Shown: positions 20,293 to 35,755 of the stretch, piece by piece
Layout of the letters: every line of letters begins with the position of its first letter
Position numbering within the stretch: position 1 is the stretch's first letter
NCBI GenBank assembly: GCA_002633185.1
Contig: NWBM01000002.1
Span: 209,640-273,639, forward strand
Direction of reading: 5' to 3'
Length of the DNA: 64,000 bases
Origin: Lachnospiraceae bacterium Phil5
GTDB lineage: Bacteria; Bacillota; Clostridia; TANB77; CAG-508
Notes under the pieces: generated by a model
Seen by the model: the letters and a program-made list of their open reading frames with translations, nothing else
The model's database searches: none
What the model was told of the DNA's origin: nothing
Made by a program: the position numbers and the translations under genes

Positions 20293-20408
20293 CAATTTAA
20301 TTCATTTGTTAAAACTCTCAGTTATTCTGAGAGTTTTTCTTTTTTTAAACACTCTTATTTACATAATTACATAATATATACTAAATATCTATGTAAAGGA
20401 GGGTTTAA

Positions 20409-21660: not shown

Positions 21661-22636
21661 TTACATATCTGCCAAAGGATTGCTTTCAACAGCATTACGT
21701 ACTTGTTCATTTGCAACGTGTGTATATATTTCAGTAGTAGAAATACTTTCATGTCCTAATAATTCTTGTAAAGCTCTAATATCTACGTTACCATATTGAT
21801 ACATAAGAGTAGCAGCTGTATGTCTTAATTTATGTACAGAATATTTATTTGAGTCTAATCCAGCACGACGTAGTTCTTGTTTAACTATGTATTGAACAGT
21901 TCTATTACTAATACGTTCTTTACGTTCACTTAAAAATAAAGCATCACGAGAATCGTTTTTAACGGCATCATGTGGCCTAATAGTTAAATAACTATTAATA
22001 GCATTCATACAAGCTTTATTTAAGTATATAGTGCGTTCTTTGTTACCTTTACCAATAACTGTCATTTTACAATCATTAAAATTTATATCTTTCATATTAA
22101 TGCCAACTAATTCAGAAAGACGCATACCACAATTTAGGAATAATGTAATAATAGCAAAATCTCTCTCTTTGTTCCTGTCATCTATATTAGTAGCCGCTTC
22201 TAGGAGTTTTTTGCTATCATCTAAAGATAAGTATTTAGGAACACGTTTATCTTGTTTTGGAGTCTCTAAGTTCTGCGCTGGATTCTTTTCTATTAAACCG
22301 TGCCTTGCTACACATATAGTTAAAGAACACACGAATACTTGCCGTTTTTCTAGCACGAGTAGCGGCTTTACTTTGAAAATTATTCTTTAAATAGAACAAA
22401 TATGCATGTATATCTTCAAGCTTTATTTTAGCAACCGTATCTATACTCATATCATGAATATCAATTTCTTTTATATCTTTCTTATCTGTCATTCTAAAAT
22501 GCATGAGAATGAATTTTAAGAAGTTATTTAAGTCATAGTTGTATTCCTTGATAGTGTTAGGTGATTTATTTAAAATAGTAGCTGTATAATCTAAAAATGA
22601 ATTTAAAAAATATGGATTTCCTTCTGTATTTATCAT
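21661..22636 (-). pseudogene. XerC/XerD-type tyrosine recombinase, split by a frameshift
   Basis: The N-terminal ORF (22247-22636) ends ...IRVFFNYM. The C-terminal ORF (21661-22356) continues GLIEKNP... in another frame and carries R (GMRLSEL), K, HKLRHT and LGHESISTTEIYTHV. Confidence 0.8.
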
Positions 22637-22932: not shown

Positions 22933-23146
22933 AATAGAATACCTCCTTTTTAATGTTGCGCAAGCAGTAATACCACTTACATAGACCTAGTTAGTAGTAT
23001 AATATGGAAGAACCACAATACACTCTAACGCTTAATATGTTACTTAATGACTTTGTCATCTTATAACGTTAAATATTATATCACATATTTAAATTAATTG
23101 CAATATTACACATAATTGAACGAACAATAACAATATAAAAAAATTG

Positions 23147-23212
23147 CAAAAATAACGACGCACGAGAATCGATTTTAAGGCGTTTTTAAAAATTAGGCAT
23201 ATAGTTTGTTGT
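23147..23212 (-). repeat. inverted partial copy (box iii) of the island's AT-rich repeat, copy r1
   Basis: About 65 bp, near-identical to 24714-24778. Its reverse complement aligns with AAAACAACAA..TATATG.CT..TTTT.TAAAAA.G.CTTAAAA of copies c1-c5. Confidence 0.7.
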
Positions 23213-23340
23213 CTGCAAAAAGCTACCATTTATTGAAATATAAGCATTTTCAAGATTTTCAAAAAATTATATTTCAAGTTGAAAAAAATTTTTTAGTATG
23301 TTATTATTTTTTTGATATTATATAAAAAGGAGAAAATGTT

Positions 23341-24159
23341 ATGGGATTATTTAGTAAAAAGTATTGTTGCCTATGTGGCGAAAAAGTTGGATTATTAGGT
23401 GGACTAAAATTAAAAGATGGAGACCTATGTAAAGAATGTAAGAAAAAATTATCTCCATTTTTCGATGATGGAAAAGAATCAACAGTTGAAGATATAAAGA
23501 AACAAATTGCTGCTAGAGAAGAAAATTATAAACAATTAGATAATTTACAAATCAATAAAATATATGGAGAGTTTGGAGTTATATTAATTGATGAAACAAA
23601 TAAAAAGTTTGTTGCAGTAGCAGATACAAGTGATGGTTTGTTTAAATCTCCTAAAGTAGTTAAAAGCATTGAAGACATTAAAGATAAAAATCCTGATATA
23701 ATAGATTTCAAGGATATTGAAGATGTTGATATAAAAATAATTGAAACAACAAGAGAAGAAAAACAAACTATAGATGGACAGCAAGTTAGCTATGATCCAA
23801 AGCATTATACTTATATGATTGGTTTTGATGTAATTATTAAAGTAAATCATCCATATATTAAAACAATAAGAATAAGTCTAAAGAATGGAACTGTACAAAT
23901 TTATAATGAAGGAAGAAGATTAAAAGATGACTATGTAACTGGATTTATAAGAGATAGATTTGGAATAACAAGAGTTGAAGACAGAGCTGTTCACTACGAC
24001 AATTTAACAATACAAAATATTGTATCTAATGCTATGAAAGAAATGCCTGAATATTCATTTGGTTTTAAATGTACATTAAAGAATTATGACAGTATTAGAG
24101 AATATGCTTATTATTTAGCTTTATGTGATGATATAAAAACAACATTATTAAATAAATAA
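23341..24159 (+). CDS. DUF4428-like protein with N-terminal zinc ribbon
   Basis: N-terminus MGLFSKKYCCLCGEKVGLLGGLKLKDGDLCKECKKKLSPFF, which fits my recollection of the DUF4428 pattern. Good SD. Confidence 0.5.
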   Translation: MGLFSKKYCCLCGEKVGLLGGLKLKDGDLCKECKKKLSPFFDDGKESTVEDIKKQIAAREENYKQLDNLQINKIYGEFGVILIDETNKKFVAVADTSDGLFKSPKVVKSIEDIKDKNPDIIDFKDIEDVDIKIIETTREEKQTIDGQQVSYDPKHYTYMIGFDVIIKVNHPYIKTIRISLKNGTVQIYNEGRRLKDDYVTGFIRDRFGITRVEDRAVHYDNLTIQNIVSNAMKEMPEYSFGFKCTLKNYDSIREYAYYLALCDDIKTTLLNK

Positions 24160-24164
24160 TAATT

Positions 24165-24197
24165 TAAATTTCCACTTTTTATAGTGGAAATTTTTTT
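24165..24197 (+). terminator. intrinsic terminator
   Basis: AAATTTCCAC-loop-GTGGAAATTT hairpin followed by a T-run. Confidence 0.65.
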
Positions 24198-24199
24198 GT

Positions 24200-24640
24200 T
24201 TTTGTGCAAAGAAGCGGAAGAGTAGGGGAGGTAGAGGCATTTTGAAAGATAATAAAATAAATTTTAAATAATTTTAATAAATTGATTAAATAAAATTTTT
24301 TCAAAAAAGAAATAGGGAGAATAGACAGAATAAAATTTATACAAATAAAAAAATTTATAAAATAATTAAAATCAAAAAATTAATTTTAAAATTTAAAATT
24401 TAAAATTTTTACAAATTTATTTTTAAAATTTTTATGCGAACATTTGTGTTAAAAATATTTTTTTACAAAATTCTAAAATCTGATTTAAAAATTTTATTTT
24501 TGGATTTTTTTTAAATAAAATTTTATAGTATAAGTTTATAATTAAAATTATATTCAGACGTCTCAAAATCGTTTTTAAGACATTTATATTATTTAGACAT
24601 CAAATTATATATATAAATAATTTCGGATACTATTTTTTTA
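24200..24640. repeat. scrambled AT-rich repeat-derived segment
   Basis: Contains box i TTTTGTGCAAA (24200-24210), inverted box ii GTAGGGGAG (24222-24230) and an inverted box iii-like segment near 24573-24588. Confidence 0.4.
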
Positions 24641-24713
24641 AATAATTAAAACTGGTTATTTCTATGAAAAAAACTGATATAACTTGGGTTTCTAAGGAAC
24701 TCCTAAAAAGTGC

Positions 24714-24886
24714 CAAAATAACAACGCACGAGAATCGATTTTAAGGCGTTTTTAAAAATTAGACATATAGTTTGTTGTTATTAAGATAAACTTAATATAG
24801 CAAAAAGCGTGATATAGCAGTAATTATAAGGTATTAGTTGATATAGGCCTATATATAATTTTTGTCCTACCCCTATTTGCACAAAA
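24714..24886 (-). repeat. short inverted copy of the AT-rich repeat (r2)
   Basis: Inverted box iii at 24714-24778 and inverted box i TTGCACAAAA at 24877-24886, abutting copy c1 head-to-head. Confidence 0.6.
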
Positions 24887-24887
24887 C

Positions 24888-25255
24888 TTTCATTTTGTGC
24901 AATGTTATATTTCGGTTTTTGGTACCCTATATAGAGATAATTTTAAAAATTTTCCTACCTCTCTTCTATCACTTTTTAGCTTCTAACATGTAATTACCAA
25001 AATTAAATTTTATTCATTTTATATTTATTATTTTATTATTCTGATTATATTTTCTTTTCCAAACTCATTTTTTACTTTTTGAAAAATATTTTTATAAATT
25101 TAATTTTTATTTTTAATTTGTAAAAAATTAATCATTATACTAAAAATTACTATTTTTCTCCCCTACTTCTCAAATTCGTTAAAATTCAAGAAATTATAAA
25201 ACAACAAGTTTATATATCTTTTTTATAAAAATGTCTTAAAACTCATCCTTGTTCT
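24888..25255 (+). repeat. AT-rich cassette repeat, copy c1
   Basis: Boxes CTTTCATTTTGTGCAATGTT ... TTATACTAAAAATT.CTATTTT.CTCCCCTACTTCTCAAA ... AAAACAACAAGTTTATAT..CTTTTTTATAAAAATGTCTTAAAA. Confidence 0.8.
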
Positions 25256-25332
25256 TATTAAAATGTATTATAAATAATAAACAAGACTCTCAATTTTGGA
25301 TTGAAAGTCTTGTTTATTTGGTCAGTAATTTT

Positions 25333-25563
25333 TTACTTAATGATATACTTGGCAAGTTCTTTAGCTGCCTTTGCAGATTCCAGTTTGCCACGTTCAATGT
25401 TTCGACGCACGATTGGTAAGTTTCGCATATATTTTGCATTTACCATGCTGCGTATGGCTTTGGGTTTAGACTGCATTGGCTCATCTAAACAAGAATCCCA
25501 TACAAATTCTCTAGGTTCATCTAGACATGGATTCCGAACCATTTTTTGGGGCTTGTTGCTCAT
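25333..25563 (-). CDS. small basic protein (76 aa), third gene of cassette A
   Basis: GAGGTG SD before ATG 25563. No family recognised. Confidence 0.5.
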   Translation of the reverse strand: MSNKPQKMVRNPCLDEPREFVWDSCLDEPMQSKPKAIRSMVNAKYMRNLPIVRRNIERGKLESAKAAKELAKYIIK

Positions 25564-25573
25564 GTCAAACACC

Positions 25574-25759
25574 TCACTTAAATTTATGACGTTTGCTCCT
25601 CATTGTTACAGAACTATCTTGCTTTAACCTGTTAGCTTCATCAAGCTCTTTTTGCAGTCTTGGCAAAGCTCTTTTCTCTGAAGCAATCAGTTCGCCATAC
25701 CGAGGAACATGTACTGTAGCAATTGTAAAGCTGATTTTGGGCTTTTCACTAGTTTCCAT
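25574..25759 (-). CDS. 61-aa basic protein (METSEKPKI...YGELIASEKRALPRLQKEL), paralog of 28729-28914
   Basis: GGAAGG SD before ATG 25759. About 70 percent identical by eye to the cassette B copy. Confidence 0.6.
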   Translation of the reverse strand: METSEKPKISFTIATVHVPRYGELIASEKRALPRLQKELDEANRLKQDSSVTMRSKRHKFK

Positions 25760-25782
25760 AGAATTTACCTTCCATTCATATT

Positions 25783-25995
25783 TTAGCAACAACCATGGGT
25801 TTTAGCCCAAACTGATGCATCTGCATCGTTTTCACGTTGCTTTTTGCATTTTTCAGCTAGTTGTCTGTTCGTTTTTGCAATCTTTTCAGGATCAGCAGGA
25901 ACAACCTTTGCACGTTTTAGTGGAACTCCTGGACATAAATCACGCATTTTTCCATTAGGTAAGTGTATATACCTCTTTTGACGAATTATTTTCAT
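25783..25995 (-). CDS. 70-aa basic protein ending KTHGCC, paralog of 29137-29349
   Basis: GGAGGA SD. MKIIR.KRYIHLPNGKMR.LCPGV is conserved in both copies. Confidence 0.65.
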   Translation of the reverse strand: MKIIRQKRYIHLPNGKMRDLCPGVPLKRAKVVPADPEKIAKTNRQLAEKCKKQRENDADASVWAKTHGCC

Positions 25996-26179
25996 TTACG
26001 TTTCCTCCGAATTTAGGTTGTAAGCAAGTAAGCTGACCTTCTTACTAACTTATGGCTTTGTTAGTGCTGAACACGAATATATGCAAATTCTGCATTATTC
26101 CACTAACCTGGACTATATAAACAGGCTAAGTGCCTGGAATTTATGGATTTATATTATCATCTTTTATGTAAAATGTCAA
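25996..26179 (-). promoter_or_regulatory. island promoter plus conserved structured leader, copy A
   Basis: TTGACA (26174-26179), 17 bp, TAATAT (26151-26156), then a leader of about 150 nt shared with copies B, C and D. Confidence 0.7.
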
Positions 26180-26190
26180 TTTTTTAATTA

Positions 26191-27306
26191 TTATCTTTCT
26201 TCTTCTCGTTCACACAATTCTTTATTATAAACATCTCTTGCACTTTCATATGGTATAAAATTAAAATCAAAATAAGTGTAATACCCTCCTTTAGGTAAAC
26301 TTAAATATGTATTAATTTCATTATTTGCTTTTTCAGAAATTTCATTAATTCTAACTGTTCCATCTTCAGTTAATACTAATGGCACAACATATCTTGTTTT
26401 TGCCTTAACATTTACACAGTATTTATCTTGTATCTTGCTATTACTTTGATACACCGTATTAGCATTTTGGAATTTTTTGAAACTTTCTGATAAATAACTA
26501 TCTTCGCAATTCAAAAACTTATTAATTATTTCACTTTCAGATAAACTATATAAGTCATCAATGGTTAAATATCCCGCATTGTTCATAGATTTACACATAT
26601 CTGCTAAAAATTGCATAACTGTTCTATCTTTATCGCTTACCCATTCAGGCCATAGCTTTGATATAATACTAATATATTCTTCACATACTTCCTTATCTTT
26701 AAATACTAGTTCATCTATTCCATATTCATTTTTTGCAATTGTTATATTATTATATATCTTTCTTATTTTGTCTAATTCCCAAACTCTAAAGAATGTTAAT
26801 CCACTTGCAAATGTATATTCAAATCTATCTGCAGATAATTTTGGTGTATCATTATCTGCTATTGGATATTTTTTATAATCATCTACATCTTGTAATTTTA
26901 TACCATCTCTTTCAAGTAACCACATTATTCTTTTTGAATTTTTAATGATATCTGTTGTTCTTTCTTCAGTAGATTCTTGTGTTTCAGAGTCTCCATTCAT
27001 AAAGTCAATACAGTGTTTGAATACTGGTGTTGCAATATCGTGAAACAATCCTGCTAAAGTTTGTTTTTTATCATGCGTGAAATTCCATATAATAAGTGCA
27101 ACACCTACACTGTGATCTAAATTAGAATACCAGTATTTAACGTTGAAACATTTAGAATAATCTGTTCCACAACTCATACTAATTTTACCTATTCTTTCCA
27201 TTTCTGGAGTATTAATATATTCCAAGAGCCATTCTGGAAATTCTGGCGATAATATACTAAAATATTCTTTTACTTCGTCATTTAAATTATTATAATAGTT
27301 GTTCAT
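26191..27306 (-). CDS. HD-domain phosphohydrolase-family protein (371 aa)
   Basis: The HD signature GLFHDIATPVFKH and an upstream His in the N-terminal half. Own promoter TTGATA, 17 bp, TATAAT near 27340-27370. Confidence 0.7.
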   Translation of the reverse strand: MNNYYNNLNDEVKEYFSILSPEFPEWLLEYINTPEMERIGKISMSCGTDYSKCFNVKYWYSNLDHSVGVALIIWNFTHDKKQTLAGLFHDIATPVFKHCIDFMNGDSETQESTEERTTDIIKNSKRIMWLLERDGIKLQDVDDYKKYPIADNDTPKLSADRFEYTFASGLTFFRVWELDKIRKIYNNITIAKNEYGIDELVFKDKEVCEEYISIISKLWPEWVSDKDRTVMQFLADMCKSMNNAGYLTIDDLYSLSESEIINKFLNCEDSYLSESFKKFQNANTVYQSNSKIQDKYCVNVKAKTRYVVPLVLTEDGTVRINEISEKANNEINTYLSLPKGGYYTYFDFNFIPYESARDVYNKELCEREEER

Positions 27307-27424
27307 TTAAATTACCTCCATCTTTTTTGTATTATATCATAAATATTTTAATATATCAAGAAGCGGATTTAAATGCTGCATAAAAAAAATTTGACATATA
27401 ATATAATGGTGTTATAATAATATT

Positions 27425-27488
27425 AGCATTGTAATGTAACCGATTCATGCTGACAATTGATATGTGTGTGATGACACATATCTTTTTT
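27425..27488 (+). ncRNA. predicted small RNA 1 (module 1)
   Basis: TTGACA (27391-27396), 16 bp, TATAAT (27413-27418). Internal hairpin UAGCAU/AUGCUG and terminator GATATGTGT-loop-ACACATATC plus a T-run. The 5' half is conserved at 31824-31890. Confidence 0.5.
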
Positions 27489-27571
27489 ATATAAAAAAAA
27501 GGTAACAGAATATAAATGATGTATGAAAAATTTTATTTGACATATAATAAGAATGATGCTATAATAATTAT

Positions 27572-27647
27572 AGCTTAAGCAAATGTTGTTTTGTATAACC
27601 ATATAACAACACACTAGATATGTGAGGAGAACACATATCTTTTTTTT
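27572..27647 (+). ncRNA. predicted small RNA 2 (module 1), antisense to the neighbouring small-ORF initiation region
   Basis: TTGACA (27537-27542), 17 bp, TATAAT (27560-27565), and terminator GATATGTG-loop-CACATATC plus T8. 27592-27614 repeats 27780-27804 on the same strand, so it is complementary to the convergent mRNA. Confidence 0.55.
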
Positions 27648-27701
27648 GCTCAAAAAAAGAAACAGAGCAGGGAGAAACTGCTCTGAACTACTATGTAGTT
27701 T

Positions 27702-27800
27702 TTAGTTGTCATTGTTGTTCTGATACTTTTTCAATTCTTCATTTAATCTTGCGATTTCTTGAAGAAGAATCCATATCAATGTATAACCATTTATAACAAT
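27702..27800 (-). CDS. candidate small toxin-like peptide (module 1), start codon unclear (TTG 27779 or ATT 27800)
   Basis: Promoter TTGTAT (27870-27875), 17 bp, TATAAT (27847-27852); SD AAAGGGGG; terminator hairpin 27664-27686. ...GYTLIWILLQEI...NNNDN resembles the module 2 peptide. No canonical ATG in frame. Confidence 0.3.
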   Translation of the reverse strand: MVINGYTLIWILLQEIARLNEELKKYQNNNDN

Positions 27801-27950
27801 ACACCCCCTTTCTTTCAAGGGATTGTCCAAATACATGGACCTTTTAATTATATCGTAAAATCGACTCAAATACAATGACTATTCTGTGAGTTTTGTAATT
27901 TATTTTTCGACATATTTTTTATTAAATAGTAAAAATTTTGTTTCGATATT

Positions 27951-28432
27951 AAAGTGCGACATTTTTCGAAAAACGCATATTTTATTGATACATGTAAAAT
28001 ACATTGTTTGTTTATTTCAATACCGTTTTGGGATTTTTACACTCTTTAATTTTTCTAAACTTATATATAAAATTTACCTCATAGAAAATAGTCTTATTAC
28101 TTTCATTTTGTGCAATGTTTCATATCGGATTTTGATACCCTGTATCATGTAATTTACAAAATTTAATTTTATTCATTTTATATTTATTATTTAATATTTT
28201 ATTATATTTTCTAGGTTAGATTTTGTTTTCCAAACTTATTTTTACTTTTTTACTTTAAAAAATTATTTTATATAATTTCTTTTTATTTTTTAATTTATAA
28301 AAATTTAATCATTATACTAAAAATTGCTATTTTACTCCCCTACTTCTCAAACTCATTAAAATTTAAGAAATTATAAAACAACAAAGTTATATGTCTTTTT
28401 TATAAAAATCTCTTAAAATCCATCCTCGTTTC
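27951..28432 (+). repeat. AT-rich cassette repeat, copy c2 (with ~150-bp 5' extension shared with c5)
   Basis: Same three boxes. The extension AAAGTGCGACATTTTT...TTCTAAACTTATATATAAAATTTACCTCATAGAAAATAGTCTTATTAC is near-identical to 34239-34388. Confidence 0.8.
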
Positions 28433-28524
28433 TATAATATAGGAAACTATTTAACGTTTAACCATATAACAAAATAGAGTATTTACTGTAAAGTAAGTAC
28501 TCTATTTATAGGTCAGTTGTTAAA

Positions 28525-28719
28525 TTAGTCTGAATATGTTTCATCGGCAATTTTCATTGCTGTTTGTGATTCTGTTCGGTGTTGCTTAGCTGAACGTGAT
28601 ACTCTCTCGTTTATACGCTCTGCAGTTTGAACATCTAAGCTTTCAATTCTAATAGTTCTGCCTTTGCAAGATTTCTTTTTAAGAAGAGAGCCAGAGCTAT
28701 ATTTGTTTTTATCTTCCAT
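28525..28719 (-). CDS. 64-aa hypothetical protein (cassette B, last gene)
   Basis: AGGAGGGA SD. Unrelated to the cassette A third gene. Confidence 0.55.
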   Translation of the reverse strand: MEDKNKYSSGSLLKKKSCKGRTIRIESLDVQTAERINERVSRSAKQHRTESQTAMKIADETYSD

Positions 28720-28728
28720 ATGTCCCTC

Positions 28729-28914
28729 CTATTTCCTTTTACGATGTCGACTCATCATGGTTCTATGGCTTTCCACCTTTAACCGATTAGCGTCGTTAAG
28801 TTCTTTTTGCAATCTTGGTAAAGCTCTTTTTTCACTAGCAATAAGCTCACCATAACGATGACAAGGAATTACAGCTTTCATTGATTCAATCTTGGGTTTC
28901 TCACTAGTTTCCAT
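28729..28914 (-). CDS. 61-aa basic protein, paralog of 25574-25759
   Basis: GGAGGG SD and conserved YGELIASEKRALPRLQKEL. Confidence 0.6.
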   Translation of the reverse strand: METSEKPKIESMKAVIPCHRYGELIASEKRALPRLQKELNDANRLKVESHRTMMSRHRKRK

Positions 28915-28920
28915 CAGAAT

Positions 28921-29118
28921 TTACCCTCCATTAACAAAATGTTTGAATTGCTTTTTTACTGCCGCATTATTTGCTTCTGTCTGAATTGATATTTGGTTTT
29001 CAAGAAAATAAGCTGCTTTTGATGATATCTGTCCTTTAGGTGGTTCAATAATTTTTCTTGTGCTGCTGGATTGCAGAAGTTCTTTAGGTATAAACCGTTT
29101 TATATTAGAGTCTTTCAT
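28921..29118 (-). CDS. 65-aa hypothetical protein (present only in cassette B)
   Basis: AGGAGG SD. No family recognised. Confidence 0.5.
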   Translation of the reverse strand: MKDSNIKRFIPKELLQSSSTRKIIEPPKGQISSKAAYFLENQISIQTEANNAAVKKQFKHFVNGG

Positions 29119-29136
29119 ATAGATACCTCCTAAGCA

Positions 29137-29349
29137 TCAACAGCAACCATGAGTTTTAGTCCAAACTTTTGCTTCAGCATCATTCTCACGTTGCTTTTTG
29201 CATTTTTTAGCTAGTTTTTTGTTCGTTTTGGCTATCTTTTCAGGATCAGCAGGAATAACTTTTGCGCCTTTTATTAGAACTCCTGGACATAACTCCCGCA
29301 TTTTTCCATTAGGTAAGTGAATATACCTTTTGGGGCGTATAATTTTCAT
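29137..29349 (-). CDS. 70-aa basic protein ending KTHGCC, paralog of 25783-25995
   Basis: AGGAGG SD. More than 80 percent identical by eye to the cassette A copy. Confidence 0.65.
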   Translation of the reverse strand: MKIIRPKRYIHLPNGKMRELCPGVLIKGAKVIPADPEKIAKTNKKLAKKCKKQRENDAEAKVWTKTHGCC

Positions 29350-29536
29350 TAATGTATCCTCCTAATTTAAGGTTGTAAGCAAAGTAAGCTGACCTTCTTA
29401 CTTGCTATGGCTTTGTTAGTGCTGAACACGAATATCTGCAAATTCTGCATTATTCCACTAACGCTTACTATATGTAAACAGGCTGTTTGCCTGGAATTTA
29501 TGGGATTATATTATCATCTTTTATGTAAAAAGTCAA
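29350..29536 (-). promoter_or_regulatory. island promoter plus conserved structured leader, copy B
   Basis: TTGACT (29531-29536), 17 bp, TAATAT (29508-29513), then the conserved leader. Confidence 0.7.
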
Positions 29537-29630
29537 TTTTTCTATTGTGCTCTTACCAACAAGAATCTTTTGTATTTCGCTTTTTTGACTTTTATCGGAA
29601 TTTCCGACAAAAGATTAATGATTTTATTAA

Positions 29631-29670
29631 TAAAATAAAAAAGCCTAAAATTTTATATATTTCAGGCTTC
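29631..29670 (-). terminator. intrinsic terminator downstream of the Abi remnant
   Basis: AAGCCT-loop-AGGCTT hairpin with a T-run on the minus strand. Confidence 0.55.
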
Positions 29671-29673
29671 AGA

Positions 29674-29712
29674 ATGACTTAGAGCTTCTAGAGTTTTCTA
29701 AGTACCGTTCAT
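29674..29712 (-). repeat. structured direct repeat X1 flanking the Abi remnant
   Basis: ATGAACGGTAC-TTAG-AAAACTCTAGAAGCT-CTAA-GTCAT on the minus strand. The partner copy at 30360-30398 has compensatory stem changes. Confidence 0.55.
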
Positions 29713-29731
29713 TATTATTATATTCTAGTTT

Positions 29732-30321
29732 TTAATTATTATTCAAAGGAAAGCCCATTACAGATAAAATTGCATCTATTTTTATAGAATGTAAATTTTC
29801 TTTAAGTTTATCTATTTCATCATTTATAGAATTGCATAAATCTTTATATTGATCCTTTGTTAGTAGCTTTTCCATACATCTAATTACCATATATAAGTTA
29901 GTTATATTATCTGATTTTTCATAGTCCTTATCAATAAGTTTAAATGAAAGATAAAATTTACTAGTATAACTATATAATCTATCAGAGTGGGCTGCAATAT
30001 TTCTTACAGTAGATAAGTTTTTTAGTATTTGTTTTAATAACTTATCTGATATTCTAAAATACTTTGCAACTGCTTGTCTATCACTTTGCTTTAAAAGTCC
30101 ATAATAACTACTTGCTACTCCAAATGTAAGAACCTTTGTTAGAACAAATGGTGGTACAAATCCATATTTGTTTATGTAATGTGTTACTGCAGTATGAGTA
30201 TTATAATCCTTTTCGATTTCTGCATTTATTTTATTAAGCAAATTTTCTTTTATATTATTATTCTTACGCCTTTTGACTCCAAATAATCTATTAATTCTTC
30301 GTTAGTTCTATATTCTTTCAT
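29732..30321 (-). pseudogene. Abi_2 (AbiD/AbiF-like) abortive-infection gene remnant
   Basis: The 169-aa ORF carries FG....YY and VRNIAAHSDRLY, typical of Abi_2. A 23-aa N-terminal piece (MKEYRTNEELIDYLESKGVRIII, 30250-30321) lies in another frame, and the expected ~100 aa between the two pieces is missing. Confidence 0.6.
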
Positions 30322-30359
30322 TAAATAGTTAAACTCTCCTTGCTTTTATAGTAAAAAAA

Positions 30360-30398
30360 ATGACCCAAGGCTTCGAAAGTTTCTTGGATACCGCTCAT
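30360..30398 (-). repeat. structured direct repeat X2
   Basis: ATGAGCGGTAT-CCAAG-AAACTTTCGAAGC-CTTGG-GTCAT followed by T8, with a promoter-like TTGCTA, 17 bp, TATTAT just upstream. Confidence 0.55.
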
Positions 30399-30470
30399 AT
30401 ATATAATAGCATATTTTAAAGTAATTAGCAAGTACCTTTTATGAAAATGTTATGATTTTTGGAAACAATA

Positions 30471-30748
30471 CTTTCATTTTGTGCAATGTTATATTTCTCT
30501 TTTTGAGATGCTCCATTTCTAAATTTATATCCCTTCTCCATCATTCTTATATATAAATTTATTAAATTCTTTAAATGTTTTTTTAATTTAATTTTCATTT
30601 ATTAATTATTTTTGCTTCTCAAAATATTTTTCTCTTCAACTTAGTTTCTAATATAAAAAATTATTTTTGTAAATTTTAATTTTAAAATTTATATTAATTT
30701 AGTAATTTTAAAAAATCAACTTTTTACTCCCCTACTTCCTGAATCGCT
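30471..30748 (+). repeat. AT-rich cassette repeat, copy c3 (divergent, lacks box iii)
   Basis: CTTTCATTTTGTGCAATGTTATATTTC ... TTTTTACTCCCCTACTTCCTGAA. Confidence 0.7.
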
Positions 30749-30820
30749 AATATTTATTCATACTAAATAACGCAAAACGGAGTCTTATCCTCTAAGACTC
30801 CGTTTTGCGGCTGAAATAAA

Positions 30821-30874
30821 TTAACCGCCTGCTTCCTTATCAGCCACAATACCAGCATAAGCAATACCAGACAT
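30821..30874 (-). CDS. 17-aa ORF (MSGIAYAGIVADKEAGG) in a mini-cassette
   Basis: GAGAGGAAG SD, a perfect upstream promoter and a 16-bp-stem hairpin downstream (30772-30808). Coding status is unproven. Confidence 0.3.
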   Translation of the reverse strand: MSGIAYAGIVADKEAGG

Positions 30875-30976
30875 ATTGACTTCCTCTCAATCGTTAATTC
30901 TTTACAGCAAGTGTCTGAACACGAGCTTTTAAGCTCACACTACGATAATTATATAGCATAATATGTTCAATGTCAA
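30875..30976 (-). promoter_or_regulatory. consensus promoter plus short leader related to the island leader
   Basis: TTGACA (30971-30976), 17 bp, TATAAT (30948-30953). The leader shares CGTGTTCAG.CAC with leaders A-C. Confidence 0.5.
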
Positions 30977-30989
30977 ATAAGGACTTTTT

Positions 30990-31050
30990 TATTACATTCA
31001 TTATACTAAAAATTGCTATTTTATTCCCCTACTTCTTAAGTTTAGTGATA
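30990..31050 (+). repeat. AT-rich repeat fragment (box ii only), c3b
   Basis: CATTATACTAAAAATTGCTATTTTATTCCCCTACTTCTTAAG. Confidence 0.7.
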
Positions 31051-31112
31051 TTTTTTATAACAAATAAGAGTTTTCGGTTCAGTACGAAAACTCTTATAAA
31101 TATTTGATAATT

Positions 31113-31604
31113 CTACTTATCCCATGAACCAACAACAAAATATGGCACACCATCTATATTCCTATAGTAAACTCTGAAACCATAGGGCTCGCGAGATAAA
31201 ACCTGGACAATACCGACAATAACAATTTGAAACAAATCGTTTATCACTCTGATATCTGAGCCACAATATCCTTCGTGTGCAGTCAACAGTTCATCGAGAT
31301 TTTTTCCCCGAATTCCATTCTTGTCATCAGAAAACTTTGCTTCAAGCTTCTCAATAAGTTCTGTATCATCTTTATAACTGCTTGGAAACTTAATACTTGA
31401 GAACCGACCGTCGGCATCTTTGTCAAAAACTTCATCAAAAATATCTGCAAGTTTGAACTTACGCTCATTTCCTAAAAATCTTTCAGTTACCGGCAGATTT
31501 GCTTTTTCGAAGTGCTTAAGCACGATCTCAAGAAATGCCACTTTTTCAACAGAGCACCCTACATTATAAAGCAAGTAATCGGCTTTGAATATGCGATTAT
31601 ACAT
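31113..31604 (-). CDS. 163-aa hypothetical protein (cassette C cargo)
   Basis: GGAGGA SD and terminator hairpin at about 31055-31085. No family recognised. Confidence 0.6.
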   Translation of the reverse strand: MYNRIFKADYLLYNVGCSVEKVAFLEIVLKHFEKANLPVTERFLGNERKFKLADIFDEVFDKDADGRFSSIKFPSSYKDDTELIEKLEAKFSDDKNGIRGKNLDELLTAHEGYCGSDIRVINDLFQIVIVGIVQVLSREPYGFRVYYRNIDGVPYFVVGSWDK

Positions 31605-31779
31605 ATTTTTTCCTCCAATTATGGTTAGGCAAGTTTTTTTCTTAACTTGTATGGGCTTTGTTAGTGCTGAACACGAATATGCAAATTCTGCATTATTCCA
31701 CTAACGCTTACTATATGTAAACAGGCTGTTTGCCTGGAATTTATGGATTTATATTATCATCTTTTATGTAAAATGTCAA
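31605..31779 (-). promoter_or_regulatory. island promoter plus conserved structured leader, copy C
   Basis: TTGACA (31774-31779), 17 bp, TAATAT (31751-31756). Back-to-back with the sRNA1 promoter at 31790. Confidence 0.7.
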
Positions 31780-31823
31780 TTTATATGATTTGACATATAA
31801 TTAAATGGTGTTATAATAATATT

Positions 31824-31890
31824 AGCATTGTAGTGTAACCGATTTATAGTAATGCTTGATATGTGTGTGATGACACATATCTCTTTTTTT
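31824..31890 (+). ncRNA. predicted small RNA 1 (module 2)
   Basis: TTGACA (31790-31795), 16 bp, TATAAT (31812-31817). Same 5' sequence ATTAGCATTGTA.TGTAACCGATT and the same terminator stem as module 1. Confidence 0.5.
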
Positions 31891-31969
31891 ATAAAAATAT
31901 TAGATACACATAAATAAGGTATGAAAAATTTTATTTGACATATAATAAGAATGATGCTATAATAATTAT

Positions 31970-32037
31970 AGCTTAAGCAAATCATAGGATGTCACAAGAT
32001 TTGCATCGAGATATGTTCGTCGCATATCTCTTTTTTT
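31970..32037 (+). ncRNA. predicted small RNA 2 (module 2), antisense to the neighbouring small-ORF initiation region
   Basis: TTGACA (31935-31940), 17 bp, TATAAT (31958-31963), and terminator GAGATATG-loop-CATATCTC plus a T-run. 31982-32005 matches 32159-32182 at 19 of 24 positions on the same strand. Confidence 0.55.
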
Positions 32038-32082
32038 ATTTTAATTCAAAAGAAAAAGGCGGTCGTCGTCCGCCTTCAAAGA

Positions 32083-32172
32083 TTATTCTTTGTTTGTGCC
32101 TTGGTTTTCATTATCATTATTACTTAAAAGCAATAAGACAATTAATCGCCAGATTAGCTCATAGGATGTCAT
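32083..32172 (-). CDS. 29-aa hydrophobic peptide MTSYELIWRLIVLLLLSNNDNENQGTNKE, type I toxin candidate (Fst-like architecture)
   Basis: Promoter TTGTAT (32247-32252), 17 bp, TATAAT (32224-32229); SD GGGAGGTG; ATG 32172; terminator AAGGCGG-loop-CCGCCTT (32057-32077). Convergent with sRNA2. Confidence 0.45.
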   Translation of the reverse strand: MTSYELIWRLIVLLLLSNNDNENQGTNKE

Positions 32173-32358
32173 TCCTTTTGCACCTCCCTTCTGCAGGGAT
32201 TGTCCAAATACATGGACCTTTTAATTATATCGTAAAATTGACTCAAATACAATGACTATTCTGTGAATTTTGTAATTTGTTTTTCTAATAATATGTCGAA
32301 AAATGACATTTCGATAACTATTTTCAGCTTGTTATTTTTGTATTATAAAATGTCCGAT

Positions 32359-32725
32359 TTCTTTCATTTTGTGCAATGTTATGTTTCGGATTTTGGTATA
32401 CTCTATATCGATAAATTTAGAAATTTTTGTACCCCCTTCTATAGTTATTATATATTTATATATGATTATTAAAAATTATTTTTTATTACTATTTATATTT
32501 ATTGTTTTATTTTTTCTAATTATATTTTCTGTTTTAGATTTTCTTTTCCATAATTATTTTTAATTTTAAAAATTATTTTATAAATTTTATTTTTGTTTTT
32601 AAAAATTTATTCATTATACTAAAAATTCTTATTTTTCTCCCCTACCTCTTAAATTCATTAAAATTTAAGAAATTATAAAACAACAAGTTATATGTCTTTT
32701 TTATAAAAATGCATTAAAATGCATT
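32359..32725 (+). repeat. AT-rich cassette repeat, copy c4
   Basis: All three boxes are present. The ORF-track ORFs here are not frame-conserved between copies. Confidence 0.8.
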
Positions 32726-32770
32726 TCCATAAGTTTGTCAATAAGAAAAATATATTAATATGTAGTTTCA

Positions 32771-33088
32771 TTAAAATACTTCATACGTCGGATATTTTAA
32801 CAGTAAACTTTCATCATTTAAGTCAATTTTTTTATTATATAATAATTTGTAAAAATAGTCTTTTGAGATTAATTGTTTATATACTATATCTATTTTTTCT
32901 TCATTTATTTCTAACGCCTTCAAAAGCTGATAGGCTCTTTTTTGAGTAATCTTAAAAAAAAGAGCTTCATCTTTTAACATATTTCTTATTTCAAGATTTA
33001 TAGTGCAATCTACTCCATTATTAGTTTTAAAATCAATATTTGTTTCATTCATAATATTAATACATTCAAAAATATTTACATCATCCAT
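32771..33088 (-). CDS. 105-aa hypothetical protein, translationally coupled to the upstream gene
   Basis: AAGGAG SD before ATG 33088. The ATGGATGA overlap spans the stop of 33081-34112. Confidence 0.55.
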   Translation of the reverse strand: MDDVNIFECINIMNETNIDFKTNNGVDCTINLEIRNMLKDEALFFKITQKRAYQLLKALEINEEKIDIVYKQLISKDYFYKLLYNKKIDLNDESLLLKYPTYEVF

Positions 33089-34112
33089 AATAAACAATCT
33101 CCTTTGCAATTTCGCTTCTATTTTTATTTGGTAAATACAGTCCATCTTGAATATTATCAAAAAACTTTCTTGAACTAATTAATTCTACACCTAATGAATT
33201 TATTATTATGTAATTCATATTCCAAGCTATATATAAAGTTTGAATATATTTATCGCCAACTTTTAGCCAAATCTTTTTAGGTTCATAACCTTTAAGTTCA
33301 AGTATAGGCTTTATATATTTAAATACTCCATCATTACCAGCATTCTTTGTTTTGCTTAGCAAAATATTCATCCACTCATATTCACCATTTTTTTCAAAAT
33401 CTTCCATAATTTCTTTTTCAAACTCTTTTTTAGGCTTTCTATTTAAATTGAATTTATCAACTGCTTTCTTAACAATGTCTTTTTCATCATTAACAATTGT
33501 AATTCCTTTTATTTCTAATCCTAATTTTGCTCTATTTAAATCTTCACCTTTTACAAAATCATCACAATCAATAGTAATCATGAAATCGTCACATATAATA
33601 CCTGTAGCATAATGAGACTCATATTCATCAGATACCAAAAAAATATCGCATTCTTCATTCGTTAATTGTTTCATTCTAAAAGCAAAATATCTAGATAATT
33701 CAAAACATATTCTCCTATTATGTTTTTTTCTCTCTTCTATCCATCTGCTATTGGGATTTCTTCCATATTTTTGGTCAATAGTGCATATATTTTTCTCTCT
33801 ATCATATTTTCCTAAAAAATAACAAAATTCATCAAAAACAAAATGTTCACATACCATACAATGAACTATTAAGATTTTTTCAATTAAGCTTAGTTGATCC
33901 AAACCTTCGATTTCATGTATTTTATCTACAATTGAATCATCTTCTGTTTTCCAAGCCACATAATCATATTGTATTCTTGAATCACCTATTTCTTCTTGAT
34001 CTTCAGGATCAACTTTTATTTTACACCAGTTCATATGATTTGTAATTCTTTTTAATGCCTCTAGAAATTCTTTTCTCTTTTCTTCTTTGTTCATTAGTTT
34101 TTTATCCTCCAT
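33081..34112 (-). CDS. ~340-aa hypothetical protein, weak transglutaminase-like Cys-His-Asp pattern (start probably ATG 34094)
   Basis: RRICFELSRYF ... SHYATGI ... ITIDCD spacing recalls transglutaminase-fold cysteine proteases. This is inference only. Confidence 0.55.
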   Translation of the reverse strand: MEDKKLMNKEEKRKEFLEALKRITNHMNWCKIKVDPEDQEEIGDSRIQYDYVAWKTEDDSIVDKIHEIEGLDQLSLIEKILIVHCMVCEHFVFDEFCYFLGKYDREKNICTIDQKYGRNPNSRWIEERKKHNRRICFELSRYFAFRMKQLTNEECDIFLVSDEYESHYATGIICDDFMITIDCDDFVKGEDLNRAKLGLEIKGITIVNDEKDIVKKAVDKFNLNRKPKKEFEKEIMEDFEKNGEYEWMNILLSKTKNAGNDGVFKYIKPILELKGYEPKKIWLKVGDKYIQTLYIAWNMNYIIINSLGVELISSRKFFDNIQDGLYLPNKNRSEIAKEIVYYG

Positions 34113-34238
34113 ACAATAACTTTTATTTTAATTATATTCTAAATTAAAATAAAAAAAATGGCAATATAGCTTTTAAGTATTTTTACAATAATTTCTTCGT
34201 AACAAATTATAAGTGAGCAGTATTATAATAGTCATATT

Positions 34239-34760
34239 AAACTGCGACATTTTTGCAAATTGCATGTTTTATTCATACAGGTGAAAATGTCCTACGTGCT
34301 TATTTCAATACTATTTTGAGATTTTTACATTTCTTAAATTTTCTAAACTTATATATAAAATTTACCTCATAGAAAATAGTCTTATTACTTTCATTTTGTG
34401 CAATGTTGTATTTCGGTTTTTGGTATGCTCTGTATTGATTAATTTTAAAATTTTTGTACCTCTCTTCTATCTTTATTATATATTTATATGTAATTGTTAT
34501 AAATTATCTTTTATCTAAATTTATATTTATTGTTTTGATTTTTCTAATTACATTTTCTATATTAGATTTTCTTTTCTAAACTTATTTTTATTATTTAAAT
34601 ATTATTTTATAAATTTTATTTTTAATTTATAAAAAATAATCATTATACTAAAAATTGCTATTTTACTCCCCTATTTCTCAAATCCATTAGAATTAAAGAA
34701 ATTATAAAACAATACAAACATATATGCTTTTTCTGTATAAAAGTCTTAAATTGATTTAAA
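34239..34760 (+). repeat. AT-rich cassette repeat, copy c5 (with 5' extension shared with c2)
   Basis: All boxes plus the extension. Confidence 0.8.
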
Positions 34761-34873
34761 AGATGATGAACTTGGATTTAGTAACAATAAAAAAGACAGA
34801 ACAAAAAATATTTCACTCTGTCTTTTTTCAATTATTCAGTTTCTTAGAATTTTTAATTGTATGAAAATATTTC

Positions 34874-35554: not shown

Positions 35555-35755
35555 ACCATCCCTCCAAATTATTGGTTAGCAAGTGTAATTGTTATTTACA
35601 ACTTGCATGGGCTTTGTTAGTATGCTGAACTCACACTAACTCTTACTTATATATCACTTGTTCTGAAACGCGGACTATCCAGTTCAACAAGTGAACCACA
35701 GGCATTTGCCTGGAATTTATGGATTTATACTACCACAGTTTTATGCAAATGTCAA
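35555..35755 (-). promoter_or_regulatory. island promoter plus conserved structured leader, copy D (variant with an extra hairpin)
   Basis: TTGACA (35750-35755), 17 bp, TAGTAT (35727-35732). Shares the 5' AAATCCATAAATTCCAGGCAAATGCCTG and GTTAGTG..ACTAACAAAGCCCAT segments. Confidence 0.65.

What the first reader, a model, noticed from the sequence alone, without database searches (positions are those of the whole stretch)
23147..34760. 280-520-bp AT-rich non-coding repeat family marking cassette boundaries
Five same-orientation copies (24888-25255, 27951-28432, 30471-30748, 32359-32725, 34239-34760) are accompanied by a fragment (30990-31050) and inverted partial copies (23147-23212, 24200-24640, 24714-24886). 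Three conserved boxes are separated by ~200-250 nt of low-complexity A/T. Box i is CTTTCATTTTGTGCAATGTT. Box ii is TTATACTAAAAATTGCTATTTTACTCCCCTACTTCTCAAA. Box iii is GAAATTATAAAACAACAAGTTATATGTCTTTTTTATAAAAATGTCTTAAAA. No ORF is frame-conserved between copies. On the minus strand box ii reads TAGTATAAT, and in inverted copy r1 the homologous TTTTTTAGTAT segment lies directly upstream of the DUF4428-like gene. Part of the repeat may therefore be an outward promoter or a non-coding transcript. The family is not CRISPR-like and has no transposase. Candidate roles are recombination substrate for cassette exchange, long ncRNA, or curved/silencing DNA.
Basis: seen in the sequence. Interest (0 to 1): 0.6.

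Follow-up and report, generated by a model that had tools for sequence, protein, structure and literature searches.

The report
Gene cassettes stacked at dif site
The AT-rich repeats are the conserved end-pieces of small gene cassettes that carry no integrase of their own and have piled up one behind another at dif, the site at the replication terminus where the chromosome is untangled, so that this housekeeping site works here as a gene-collecting platform.

Summary
The repeat family is real: five direct copies, one box ii fragment and inverted box iii homologues. It occurs only in this locus. "Box i" is the 6-bp spacer plus one 10-bp arm of a perfect palindrome, TTGCACAAAA-CTTTCA-TTTTGTGCAA (24877-24902). 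That palindrome is unique in the genome. It lies exactly where genome-wide GC skew changes sign, 2.2 kb from a Xer-type recombinase gene. It is present once per genome in 23/30 genomes of the genus and 76/201 of the order. It therefore meets the usual criteria for dif.

Copies c2-c5 keep only the spacer and right arm. They are pseudo-dif junctions of the kind left by successive integrations. Homology between species breaks at the spacer. Two 99.7%-identical metagenome contigs diverge exactly there. One cassette module is 95-97% identical between species whose rho genes are about 80% identical.

The repeats are thus the roughly 370-nt right attachment-site arm (with a roughly 150-nt left arm in one sub-family) of 1.9-3.2-kb integrase-less cassettes. 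This is an IMEX-like, integron-like array at dif in an uncultured gut Clostridia lineage.

What the arm itself does is unresolved. I found no conserved RNA structure, no Rfam match, no helical A-tract phasing and no ORF. An accessory or architectural role, or an outward promoter, is inference only.

The parts
24877..24902 (.). Complete dif core. Left arm TTGCACAAAA (24877-24886), spacer CTTTCA (24887-24892), right arm TTTTGTGCAA (24893-24902).
   Evidence: It is the only such palindrome in the genome. It lies at the GC-skew sign change. One copy per genome in 23/30 genomes of the genus and 76/201 of the order, with no hits for the reversed control pattern.
24886..25258 (-). AT-rich arm c1. On the minus strand it reads box iii 25258-25195, box ii 25187-25132, A/T tract, purine box 24970-24954, then right arm and spacer.
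   Evidence: It abuts the complete dif.
28099..28435 (-). AT-rich arm c2 with pseudo-dif half site 28100-28115. The left arm is degenerate (AGTCTTATTA, 3/10 matches).
30470..30748 (-). Divergent arm c3 with half site 30471-30486. It keeps GTAGGGGAG, an A/T tract and a purine box (GGAGAAGGG) but has no box iii.
   Evidence: long branch
32360..32737 (-). AT-rich arm c4 with half site 32361-32376.
34387..34766 (-). AT-rich arm c5 with half site 34388-34403. This is the outermost copy.
27951..28098 (-). Conserved left attachment-site arm ('fam2', degenerate arm ATAGTCTTATTA) that ends cassette E1.
   Evidence: 90% identical to 34297-34386 (family D10). The same arm occurs in G001 and in three metagenome contigs next to different cargo.
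34239..34386 (-). Second copy of the fam2 left arm, ending cassette E4.
30998..31053 (-). Isolated box ii fragment inside cassette E3.
   Evidence: family D4, 86%
23139..23212 (+). D14a, a 74-nt element homologous to box iii in the opposite orientation.
   Evidence: nhmmer E = 1.8e-16. The motif occurs only at the dif locus. In relatives where both were found it lies between dif and xer.
24705..24778 (+). D14b, a second copy about 100 bp left of dif. With D14a it brackets the DUF4428 gene segment.
   Evidence: (family D14, 95%)
24200..24640 (+). Weakly related A/T-rich stretch. It has one exact arm (24200-24209), GTAGGGGAG, and a box iii-like piece (24554-24599).
   Evidence: E = 0.076. Its origin was not resolved.
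21661..22636 (-). Xer-type tyrosine recombinase gene linked to dif. It is broken here by a 1-nt insertion near 22290.
   Evidence: The intact 328-aa orthologue in G023 scores best against XerC but below the family cut-off. The split gene is also called in a second assembly.
24886..28099 (-). Cassette E1 (3213 bp): arm c1, three small genes behind a promoter/leader module, a 371-aa protein with a weak HD match, a type I toxin-antitoxin-like module, and the fam2 left arm.
28099..30470 (-). Cassette E2 (2371 bp): arm c2, four small genes behind the same leader type, and a truncated AbiD/Abi_2 gene.
30470..32360 (-). Cassette E3 (1890 bp): arm c3, a 17-aa peptide module, a 163-aa gene with leader, and a toxin-antitoxin-like module.
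   Evidence: The toxin-antitoxin plus leader part is 95-97% identical to G001.
32360..34387 (-). Cassette E4 (2027 bp): arm c4, genes of 129 aa and 343 aa with no family match, and the fam2 left arm.

Best explanation
The repeats are the conserved attachment-site arms of a family of small (1.9-3.2 kb) gene cassettes that encode no recombinase. The cassettes have integrated one after another, in one orientation, into the chromosomal dimer-resolution site dif at the replication terminus.

Box i is the dif spacer plus one recombinase-binding arm. Only the copy nearest the Xer gene has the second arm (24877-24902); this is the live dif. Each further copy (c2-c5) is a hybrid pseudo-dif with a degenerate left arm, left behind when a later cassette entered the reconstituted dif.

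Shown here:
- The site meets the standard computational criteria for dif.
- The half-site architecture is as described.
- Homology breaks fall at the spacer.
- The same modules move between species and between array positions.
- Other integrase-less elements use the same site.

Inferred:
- The host Xer recombinase(s) catalyse integration.
- The newest cassette lies next to dif.
- The ~370-nt arm (box iii, box ii, A/T tract, purine box) acts at the DNA level as an accessory or architectural region for synapsis or directionality. This would be comparable to the accessory sequences of cer/psi or the arms of a phage attP. It may also carry an outward promoter (TAGTATAAT).
For: 1. The palindrome TTGCACAAAA-N6-TTTTGTGCAA occurs once in the genome, and the spacer plus right arm occurs five times, all in the array and all in one orientation.
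2. Cumulative GC skew of the 693-kb contig peaks at this point. In another species a 383-kb contig changes skew sign within 2 kb of its single site.
3. There is one site per genome in 23/30 genomes of the genus and 76/201 of the order. The arms are conserved and the spacer is lineage-specific. The reversed control pattern gives no hits.
4. The Xer-family gene lies 0.5-6 kb from the site in relatives, and synteny rho - variable region - dif - D14 - xer - flavoprotein is kept.
5. Half sites number 0-5 per genome; 9 genomes have two or more. G021, G017 and G020 have rho within 0.4-0.7 kb of dif and no canonical AT repeat.
6. Homology of c1 plus its cargo with G001 and G002 stops at 24886/24887, which is the spacer.
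7. The toxin-antitoxin plus leader module is 94.9-97.5% identical to G001, whereas rho is 77-80% identical.
8. The c1 module is dif-proximal here and rho-proximal in G001.
9. Copies within this genome are not each other's closest relatives.
10. All full-length copies in relatives and in 15 metagenome contigs abut a half or full dif.
11. Two metagenome contigs are 99.7% identical over 5992 bp and diverge immediately after the spacer. One continues into the dif left arm and D14. The other continues into a ~9-kb element. In IMG/VR that element is bounded by two half sites, encodes a Zot-like ATPase, and has no Pfam integrase hit.
12. No recombinase homologue lies inside the array.
Against: - No circular or excised form was found, and no strain pair was found that differs by an AT-repeat cassette itself. 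The clean insertion polymorphism concerns a different element.
- The dif-linked xer gene is frameshifted in this strain in two assemblies, so the array may now be frozen. Which recombinase acts is unknown. A true XerD equivalog lies elsewhere.
- The outermost copy c5 is not followed by an identifiable final junction before yrdC/rho.
- The left arms of the half sites match only 3-5 of 10 positions, so excision may be inefficient.
- Nothing computed here shows what the arm does. The purine-box/KOPS idea is weak because purine-only 7-mers are generally ~90% strand-skewed in this genome.
Confidence: 0.8

Rival explanations
1. The repeats arose in place, by tandem duplication or homologous recombination of the DNA flanking dif. 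The genes between them arrived by other routes, so the repeats are substrates of RecA-type exchange rather than attachment sites.
For: Copies are 280-380 nt long and 74-86% identical, which in principle is long enough for homologous exchange. Modules are mosaic between species: the leader, the toxin-antitoxin module and the arms are combined differently.
Against: Every copy starts at the same base of the dif spacer. Sequence to the left falls into unrelated families of degenerate arms. Copies of this genome are interleaved with copies from other species in the tree. Homology breaks with relatives fall at the spacer.
Confidence: 0.07
2. The repeat is mainly an expression element. It would be an outward promoter (box ii TAGTATAAT, or AAGACA-16-TATAAT in box iii) that makes a non-coding transcript or drives the neighbouring cassette. 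Its position next to the half site would be secondary.
For: ATTTTTAGTATAATGA is nearly invariant in 10 of 12 copies from seven species. The consensus scan lists a promoter-like site in box iii of c2. Cassette transcripts end at terminators just before the repeat, so any transcript of the repeat would be separate.
Against: There is no -35 hexamer at the right distance from TAGTATAAT. There is no conserved RNA structure and no Rfam match. The natural variants c3 and L171:6140-6290 lack the -10 or the whole A/T tract yet still sit at half sites. This reading also does not explain why each copy begins with half a dif.
Confidence: 0.08
3. The repeats are leftovers of dif-integrating prophages or of their satellites. 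For example, they could be the non-coding origin/packaging region of a filamentous phage, kept by mini-elements that a helper phage moves.
For: The same half site is used by about a dozen low-GC viral contigs of 28-43 kb. Where checked, these carry their own Xer-like integrase plus a 91-aa ORF next to the site. It is also used by a ~9-kb integrase-less element with a Zot-like ATPase. Satellites of this kind are known at dif in Vibrio (PMC6744903).
Against: No viral contig fetched carries the AT repeat beyond the shared arm. A scan of viral contigs with a box ii pattern gave only unrelated matches. The cassettes hold no phage genes. Folding the 528-nt attP-like stretch as single-stranded DNA is barely better than shuffles (z = -2.0 and -1.1).
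Confidence: 0.05

Closest known systems
IMEX arrays at dif (integrative mobile elements exploiting Xer: CTXphi/RS1/TLCphi in Vibrio cholerae, the gonococcal genetic island)
   Same: The elements have no integrase and sit at the chromosomal dif. The attachment site keeps one arm and the central region and has a degenerate second arm. Successive integrations give tandem arrays in which one functional dif is retained (PMC5357621).
   Different: The cassettes are not phages or conjugative islands. They are 2-3-kb cassettes carrying one to a few cargo genes. The host is an uncultured gut clostridial lineage. The dif sequence is unrelated to the canonical XerCD site. The attachment site carries a conserved non-coding arm of 0.37-0.52 kb. 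Catalysis by host Xer was not tested.
dif modules (pdif modules) of Acinetobacter plasmids
   Same: They are small modules without a recombinase, bounded by Xer sites. They carry accessory genes, including toxin-antitoxin pairs, and are shuffled between replicons (PMC6449649, PMC13141974).
   Different: Those modules lie on plasmids between complete XerC/XerD sites of alternating orientation. Here the sites are half sites in direct orientation on the chromosome next to the true dif.
Integron cassette arrays
   Same: Both are one-directional stacks of small cassettes lacking a recombinase, next to a tyrosine recombinase gene, with a repeat at each boundary and the newest cassette presumably nearest the primary site.
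   Different: The recombinase is Xer-like, not IntI. The sites are a double-stranded palindromic core, not folded attC hairpins. The cassettes bring their own promoters.
cer/psi plasmid resolution sites with accessory sequences
   Same: A Xer core is flanked on one side only by a conserved non-coding accessory region of a few hundred bp, and the sites are in direct repeat.
   Different: No PepA, ArgR or ArcA sites were sought or found. The resemblance is geometric only and is offered as a working model.
Xer systems whose recombinase gene lies beside its site (XerS/difSL, XerH/difH); dif discovery through mobile elements in Legionellales
   Same: The recombinase gene is linked to an atypical dif whose arms have inner A/T runs (PMC5357621). 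As for the Legionella mobile element described in PMC9765430, integrated elements point to the site.
   Different: The genome also has a bona fide XerD equivalog. A single-recombinase system is therefore not established, even though the 10-bp arms are perfectly symmetric.

Membership tests
Chromosomal dif site | Two inverted recombinase-binding arms around a 6-8-bp central region | tested here: met
   TTGCACAAAA-CTTTCA-TTTTGTGCAA at 24877-24902.
Chromosomal dif site | Single occurrence per chromosome | tested here: met
   One in the own genome, which is 77% complete. One in each of 22 further genomes of the genus. Order-wide, 75 of 76 genomes with a match have exactly one.
Chromosomal dif site | Located at the GC-skew shift point (replication terminus) | tested here: met
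   Contig C2 (693 kb) changes skew sign at the site. The G021 contig (383 kb) changes sign at 344 kb and its site is at 344,455.
Chromosomal dif site | Bound and recombined by Xer recombinases; needed for dimer resolution | not testable with these tools
   Only linkage to a Xer-family gene and the presence of a XerD equivalog are shown.
IMEX (integrative mobile element exploiting Xer) | Integrated at dif, with junctions in the core | tested here: met
   Each cassette is bounded by spacer plus arm. Homology breaks fall at the spacer.
IMEX (integrative mobile element exploiting Xer) | No recombinase of its own | tested here: met
   No Pfam or NCBIfam recombinase match in any ORF of 24.9-35.8 kb. 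Translated search with Xer finds nothing in the array.
IMEX (integrative mobile element exploiting Xer) | Attachment site resembling dif, with one good arm plus the central region | tested here: met
   The right arm and spacer are exact in c2-c5. The left arms match 3-5 of 10 positions.
IMEX (integrative mobile element exploiting Xer) | Integration and excision catalysed by host XerC/XerD; an extrachromosomal form exists | not testable with these tools
   No circular contig among the 15 metagenome contigs.
Integron | IntI-type integrase | tested here: not met
   The integron integrase models score 105.6 and 71.7 bits against cut-offs of 265 and 435. The best matches are XerC, XerD and XerA.
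Integron | attC sites: imperfect palindromes that fold as single strands | tested here: not met
   Single-strand DNA folding of the 528-nt unit gives z = -2.0 and -1.1. No consensus structure.
Acinetobacter-type dif module | Module flanked by complete Xer sites in inverted (C/D, D/C) orientation on a plasmid | tested here: not met
   Here the sites are half sites, all in direct orientation, on the chromosome. No plasmid match was found.
MITE / insertion-sequence remnant | Dispersed copies with terminal inverted repeats and target duplications | tested here: not met
   All copies lie at the dif locus in the own genome, relatives and metagenomes. There is no transposase.
Structured non-coding RNA family | Conserved secondary structure with covariation, or membership of an Rfam family | tested here: not met

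The most novel reading that the evidence does not exclude
In this order of uncultured gut Clostridia the chromosomal dif may work as a true cassette-acquisition platform, a 'Xer integron'. Small recombinase-less cassettes would carry a composite attachment site of about 0.5 kb. Its box iii/D14 motif, which is private to the dif region and also sits beside the chromosomal dif across the family, would recruit an unknown accessory factor. That factor would let Xer recombine a half site without the usual cell-division control. The same site also serves filamentous-type and tailed phages.
Probability: 0.3. Interest if true: 0.75.

Novelty: new variant of a known kind. Interest (0 to 1): 0.6.

Why it matters
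The finding identifies the dimer-resolution site of a large, uncultured, low-GC gut clostridial order. The site's sequence is unrelated to the canonical XerCD dif.

It also shows that this site is a busy entry point for foreign DNA. Three kinds of element use it: small cassettes carrying toxin-antitoxin, Abi-type and unknown genes; a filamentous-phage-like element; and tailed phages with Xer-like integrases.

Arrays of tiny integrase-less cassettes at dif would extend the IMEX and dif-module concept from Proteobacteria to Firmicutes-type gut bacteria. They give a simple sequence rule (spacer plus right arm) for finding such cassettes in metagenomes. The long conserved arm and the dif-private D14/box iii motif are concrete candidates for a new accessory component of Xer recombination.

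Tried and rejected
- **Canonical Firmicutes-type dif.** A match at 20366-20384 is only half a site, lies in a promoter region, and matches to that pattern are no more frequent than in shuffles. The four CATAA-N6-TTATG sites in the genome are far from the terminus.
- **GATATAGGCCTATATA at 24838-24853 as a dif.** It is not conserved in relatives.
- **Box iii as a Xer-type core.** It has only a T5-AT-A5 palindrome and two direct AAGACAT words, with no arms. Homology with relatives runs straight through it.
- **Box ii as a fossil dif left half.** Local alignment is no better than shuffles; 38-331 of 500 shuffles reach the score.
- **Structured RNA.** Rejected.
- **Phased A-tract curvature.** No 10-11-bp signal.
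- **attC-like or packaging-signal hairpins in single-stranded DNA.** z = -2.0 and -1.1.
- **Iterons.** Tandem Repeats Finder gives only weak 13-15-nt imperfect repeats, as expected for A/T-rich DNA.
- **Plasmid or phage origin of the repeat.** No match in plasmids and none in the viral contigs fetched.
- **Purine box as an FtsK/SpoIIIE-orienting word.** Polar words are enriched next to right arms (48 toward the core, 2 away; 9.9 per kb against 3.0 per kb). However, purine-only 7-mers are ~90% skewed genome-wide. I keep this only as an idea.
- **Strain-level comparison of this species.** Other assemblies break at the repeats.
- **Extending the metagenome contigs L176 and L179.** Not possible.

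Full report
**1. The observation**

The region holds five direct copies of an AT-rich repeat: c1 24886-25258, c2 28099-28435, c3 30470-30748, c4 32360-32737 and c5 34387-34766. There is also an isolated box ii at 30998-31053. Two 74-nt elements, 23139-23212 and 24705-24778, are box iii homologues in the opposite orientation.

GC content of the copies is 16-19%, against 28% for the window. BLAST of every copy against the 1.04-Mb genome (4 contigs, about 77% complete) gives strong matches only inside this 10-kb locus.

All cassette genes lie on the minus strand. Read in that direction, a repeat runs: box iii, about 20 nt, box ii (GAGAAGTAGGGGAG ... TTTTTAGTATAATGA), about 200 nt of A/T tract, a purine box (ATAGAAGAGAGGTA), about 50 nt, then box i. 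Each repeat follows the terminator of the upstream cassette.

**2. What box i is**

At c1, box i is mirrored by an inverted copy. Together they form TTGCACAAAA-CTTTCA-TTTTGTGCAA (24877-24902).

- This palindrome occurs once in the genome. The spacer plus right arm (CTTTCATTTTGTGCAA) occurs five times, at c1-c5 only, always on the same strand.
- The 693-kb contig has positive GC skew from its start to about 230 kb and negative skew afterwards. The maximum of cumulative skew falls at window position ~24-25 kb.
- In another species of the genus, a 383-kb contig changes skew sign in the 2-kb bin that holds its single copy of the palindrome.
- The palindrome is present exactly once in 23 of 30 genomes of the genus and in 76 of 201 genomes sampled from the order. 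One of those 76 has two. Arms are conserved and the spacer varies by lineage. The reversed control pattern never matches. Several of the genomes without a match are less than 80% complete, and in others the site lies within a few hundred bases of a contig end, so assemblies tend to break here.

A palindromic core, a single copy and a position at the skew shift point are the criteria used to predict dif (PMC3025954). All three are met.

A Xer-family gene lies 2.2 kb away. It is broken here by a 1-nt insertion, and the break is also present in a second assembly. The intact 328-aa orthologue scores best against XerC, XerD and XerA models but below their cut-offs. In relatives where both were found, this gene lies 0.5-6 kb from the site, with conserved synteny rho - variable region - dif - D14 - xer - flavoprotein. 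A true XerD equivalog lies elsewhere in the genome. I therefore do not claim a single-recombinase system.

**3. The array**

Copies c2-c5 keep the spacer and right arm exactly, but the ten bases on the other side match the left arm at only 3-5 positions. This is the junction expected when a circle whose attachment site has one good arm recombines with dif. One junction regenerates a full dif. The other is a hybrid that later insertions push outward.

By this reading the window holds four delimited cassettes:

| Cassette | Coordinates | Length (bp) |
|---|---|---|
| E1 | 24886-28099 | 3213 |
| E2 | 28099-30470 | 2371 |
| E3 | 30470-32360 | 1890 |
| E4 | 32360-34387 | 2027 |

An outermost segment (c5, a 226-aa gene, then yrdC and rho) has a far junction that I could not find.

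None of the cassettes encodes a recombinase. The cargo is as follows:
- operons of tiny basic proteins;
- a 371-aa protein with a weak HD match;
- a truncated AbiD gene;
- two type I toxin-antitoxin-like modules;
- proteins with no family match.

Cargo behind the shared promoter/leader module has 34-37% GC, well above the genome average.

**4. Evidence for mobility**

- Half sites per genome in the genus range from 0 to 5, always in one orientation within an array; this genome has the most.
- Three species have rho within 0.4-0.7 kb of dif and no canonical AT repeat.
- Homology of c1 plus its small genes with G001 (87%) and G002 (83%) ends at 24886/24887, the first base of the spacer.
- That module is next to dif here and next to rho in G001.
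- The toxin-antitoxin plus leader part of E3 is 94.9-97.5% identical to G001, whereas rho is 77-80% identical.
- In a tree of 12 copies from seven species, c1 and c2 group with G001 and G002 copies to the exclusion of c4 and c5 (support 98/96). The copies of this genome are therefore not local duplicates.
- A metagenome scan with a box ii pattern returned 15 contigs. Every repeat that is complete at its box i end abuts a half or full dif. This includes a natural variant that lacks the whole A/T tract.
- The ~150-nt segment to the left of c2 and c5 is a conserved left arm. It recurs in G001 and in three metagenome contigs beside different cargo.

**5. A direct polymorphism at the core**

Metagenome contigs L176 and L179 are 99.7% identical over 5992 bp, up to and including ...AACATTGCACAAAATCAAAG. 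They differ from the next base on.

- L176 continues with the left arm, the flank and D14.
- L179 continues with a degenerate arm and another element.

That element matches a 10.8-kb IMG/VR contig in which about 9 kb is bounded by two half sites. It encodes a Zot-like ATPase (27.4 bits, cut-off 20.3) and gives no integrase match. It is therefore a filamentous-phage-like IMEX.

About a dozen further low-GC viral contigs of 28-43 kb also carry the half site. In those examined it lies next to a 320-aa Xer-like integrase and a 91-aa ORF.

dif in this lineage is thus used by at least three kinds of element. None of the viral contigs fetched carries the AT repeat beyond the shared arm.

**6. What the arm does (inference)**

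The arm is conserved along its whole length in seven species. The following tests were negative:
- no consensus RNA structure (-3.7 kcal/mol with a positive covariation term);
- no Rfam match at E<=1;
- no significant single-strand DNA fold;
- no 10-11-bp A-tract phasing;
- no ORF with a conserved start.

Box iii is homologous over about 60 nt to D14. This motif occurs only at the dif locus in this genome. In relatives across the family it lies 80-400 bp from dif on the xer side, often in two or three copies that themselves bracket inserted genes.

Box iii and D14 face each other across the core. The arrangement resembles a composite attachment site with outlying protein-binding sites, or the one-sided accessory sequences of cer/psi. 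I consider a DNA-level accessory or architectural role the most likely (about 45%). An outward promoter, alone or in addition, comes next (about 25%). The remainder is unknown.

The purine box and the GTAGGGGAG word coincide with some of the most strand-skewed words of the genome (AGAAGAGA 80:2, TAGGGGA 33:0). Polar words are enriched and oriented toward the core in 44 distinct right flanks. Purine-rich words are skewed in general, however, so a role in orienting FtsK or SpoIIIE is only a lead.

**7. Comparison with known systems**

The array works like the IMEX arrays at dif of Vibrio and Neisseria and like Acinetobacter dif modules (PMC5357621, PMC6449649). It looks like an integron. It fails the integron tests for integrase type, attC folding and promoterless cassettes. 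It fails the dif-module tests for plasmid location and inverted complete sites.

It meets the three IMEX features that can be tested from sequence. Catalysis by host Xer and a free circular form remain untested.

Full-text searches of the paper library found no paper with both "IMEX" or "elements exploiting Xer" and "Clostridia" that concerns such elements. Two other searches on IMEXs and dif modules returned nothing on clostridial dif cassettes.

Record titles of relatives are "uncultured Clostridia" MAGs, Clostridium sp. CAG:492 and similar. The placement of the organism is inferred from these titles.

**8. Limits**

- The genome is an incomplete MAG.
- Strain-level assemblies of this species break at the repeats.
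- The stretch 24200-24640 and the D14-bounded segments on the xer side of dif were not resolved.

Noticed in passing
window 26045-26182, 29400-29539, 31645-31782, 35587-35755 (minus strand): A shared promoter (TTGACA-17-TAATAT) plus a ~130-nt leader precedes unrelated cassette genes. It recurs in cassettes of other species and in metagenome contigs at 86-92% identity. There is no Rfam match.
   Followed up: partly
window 27389-27908 and 31788-32300: Two type I toxin-antitoxin-like modules. Each has two plus-strand small RNAs with consensus promoters and terminators, convergent with a tiny hydrophobic peptide gene (MTSYELIWRLIVLLLLSNN..., 32083-32172). The second module is 97.5% identical to one in G001.
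   Followed up: partly
window 21661-22636: The dif-linked Xer gene is split by a 1-nt insertion near 22290. The same split is called in assembly GCA_965313995.1. This genome also has the longest array of half sites in the genus.
   Followed up: partly
window 23139-24778: Two 95%-identical D14 copies bracket the DUF4428 gene (23341-24159) and an A/T-rich stretch that holds an extra exact arm (24200-24209). In relatives, D14 copies likewise bracket 1.4-3-kb segments on the xer side of dif. This suggests a second kind of cassette boundary.
   Followed up: partly
L133:2233-3466, L131:155-1411, L114:5131-6403 (IMG/VR contigs): Tailed-phage-sized contigs (28-43 kb, 22-29% GC) carry the dif half site next to a ~320-aa Xer-like integrase and a conserved ~91-aa ORF (..IRKNKIELLDCQVDLILKSLE..) that has no family match.
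   Followed up: partly
L117:1241-10270 (IMG/VR) and L179:5988-7005: A ~9-kb element bounded by two dif half sites. It has a Zot-like ATPase and no integrase hit, so it is a filamentous-phage-like IMEX in a Gram-positive-type gut lineage. It is present in one and absent from the other of two 99.7%-identical metagenome contigs.
   Followed up: partly
L013:18103-20000 plus L014:1-3646 (G001): A 5.5-kb integrase-less segment lies between a half site and the full dif. It carries a FolC-like ligase, ECF-transporter-like components and an ATP-grasp-like gene, and has no AT repeat. These functions were read from the translations only and were not checked against family models.
   Followed up: no
window 25783-25995 and 29137-29349: Paralogous 70-aa basic proteins ending in HGCC head the small-gene operons of E1 and E2. 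They have no family match, and their GC content (~36%) is well above that of the genome.
   Followed up: no
window 30750-30990: A self-contained module with a consensus promoter, a 17-aa ORF (MSGIAYAGIVADKEAGG) and a strong terminator is inserted between the divergent arm c3 and the orphan box ii.
   Followed up: no
L171:6140-6290: A natural deletion variant of the AT arm. The half site (arm TTTTGCACAA) is joined after ~35 nt directly to box ii and box iii, without the A/T tract or the purine box.
   Followed up: no
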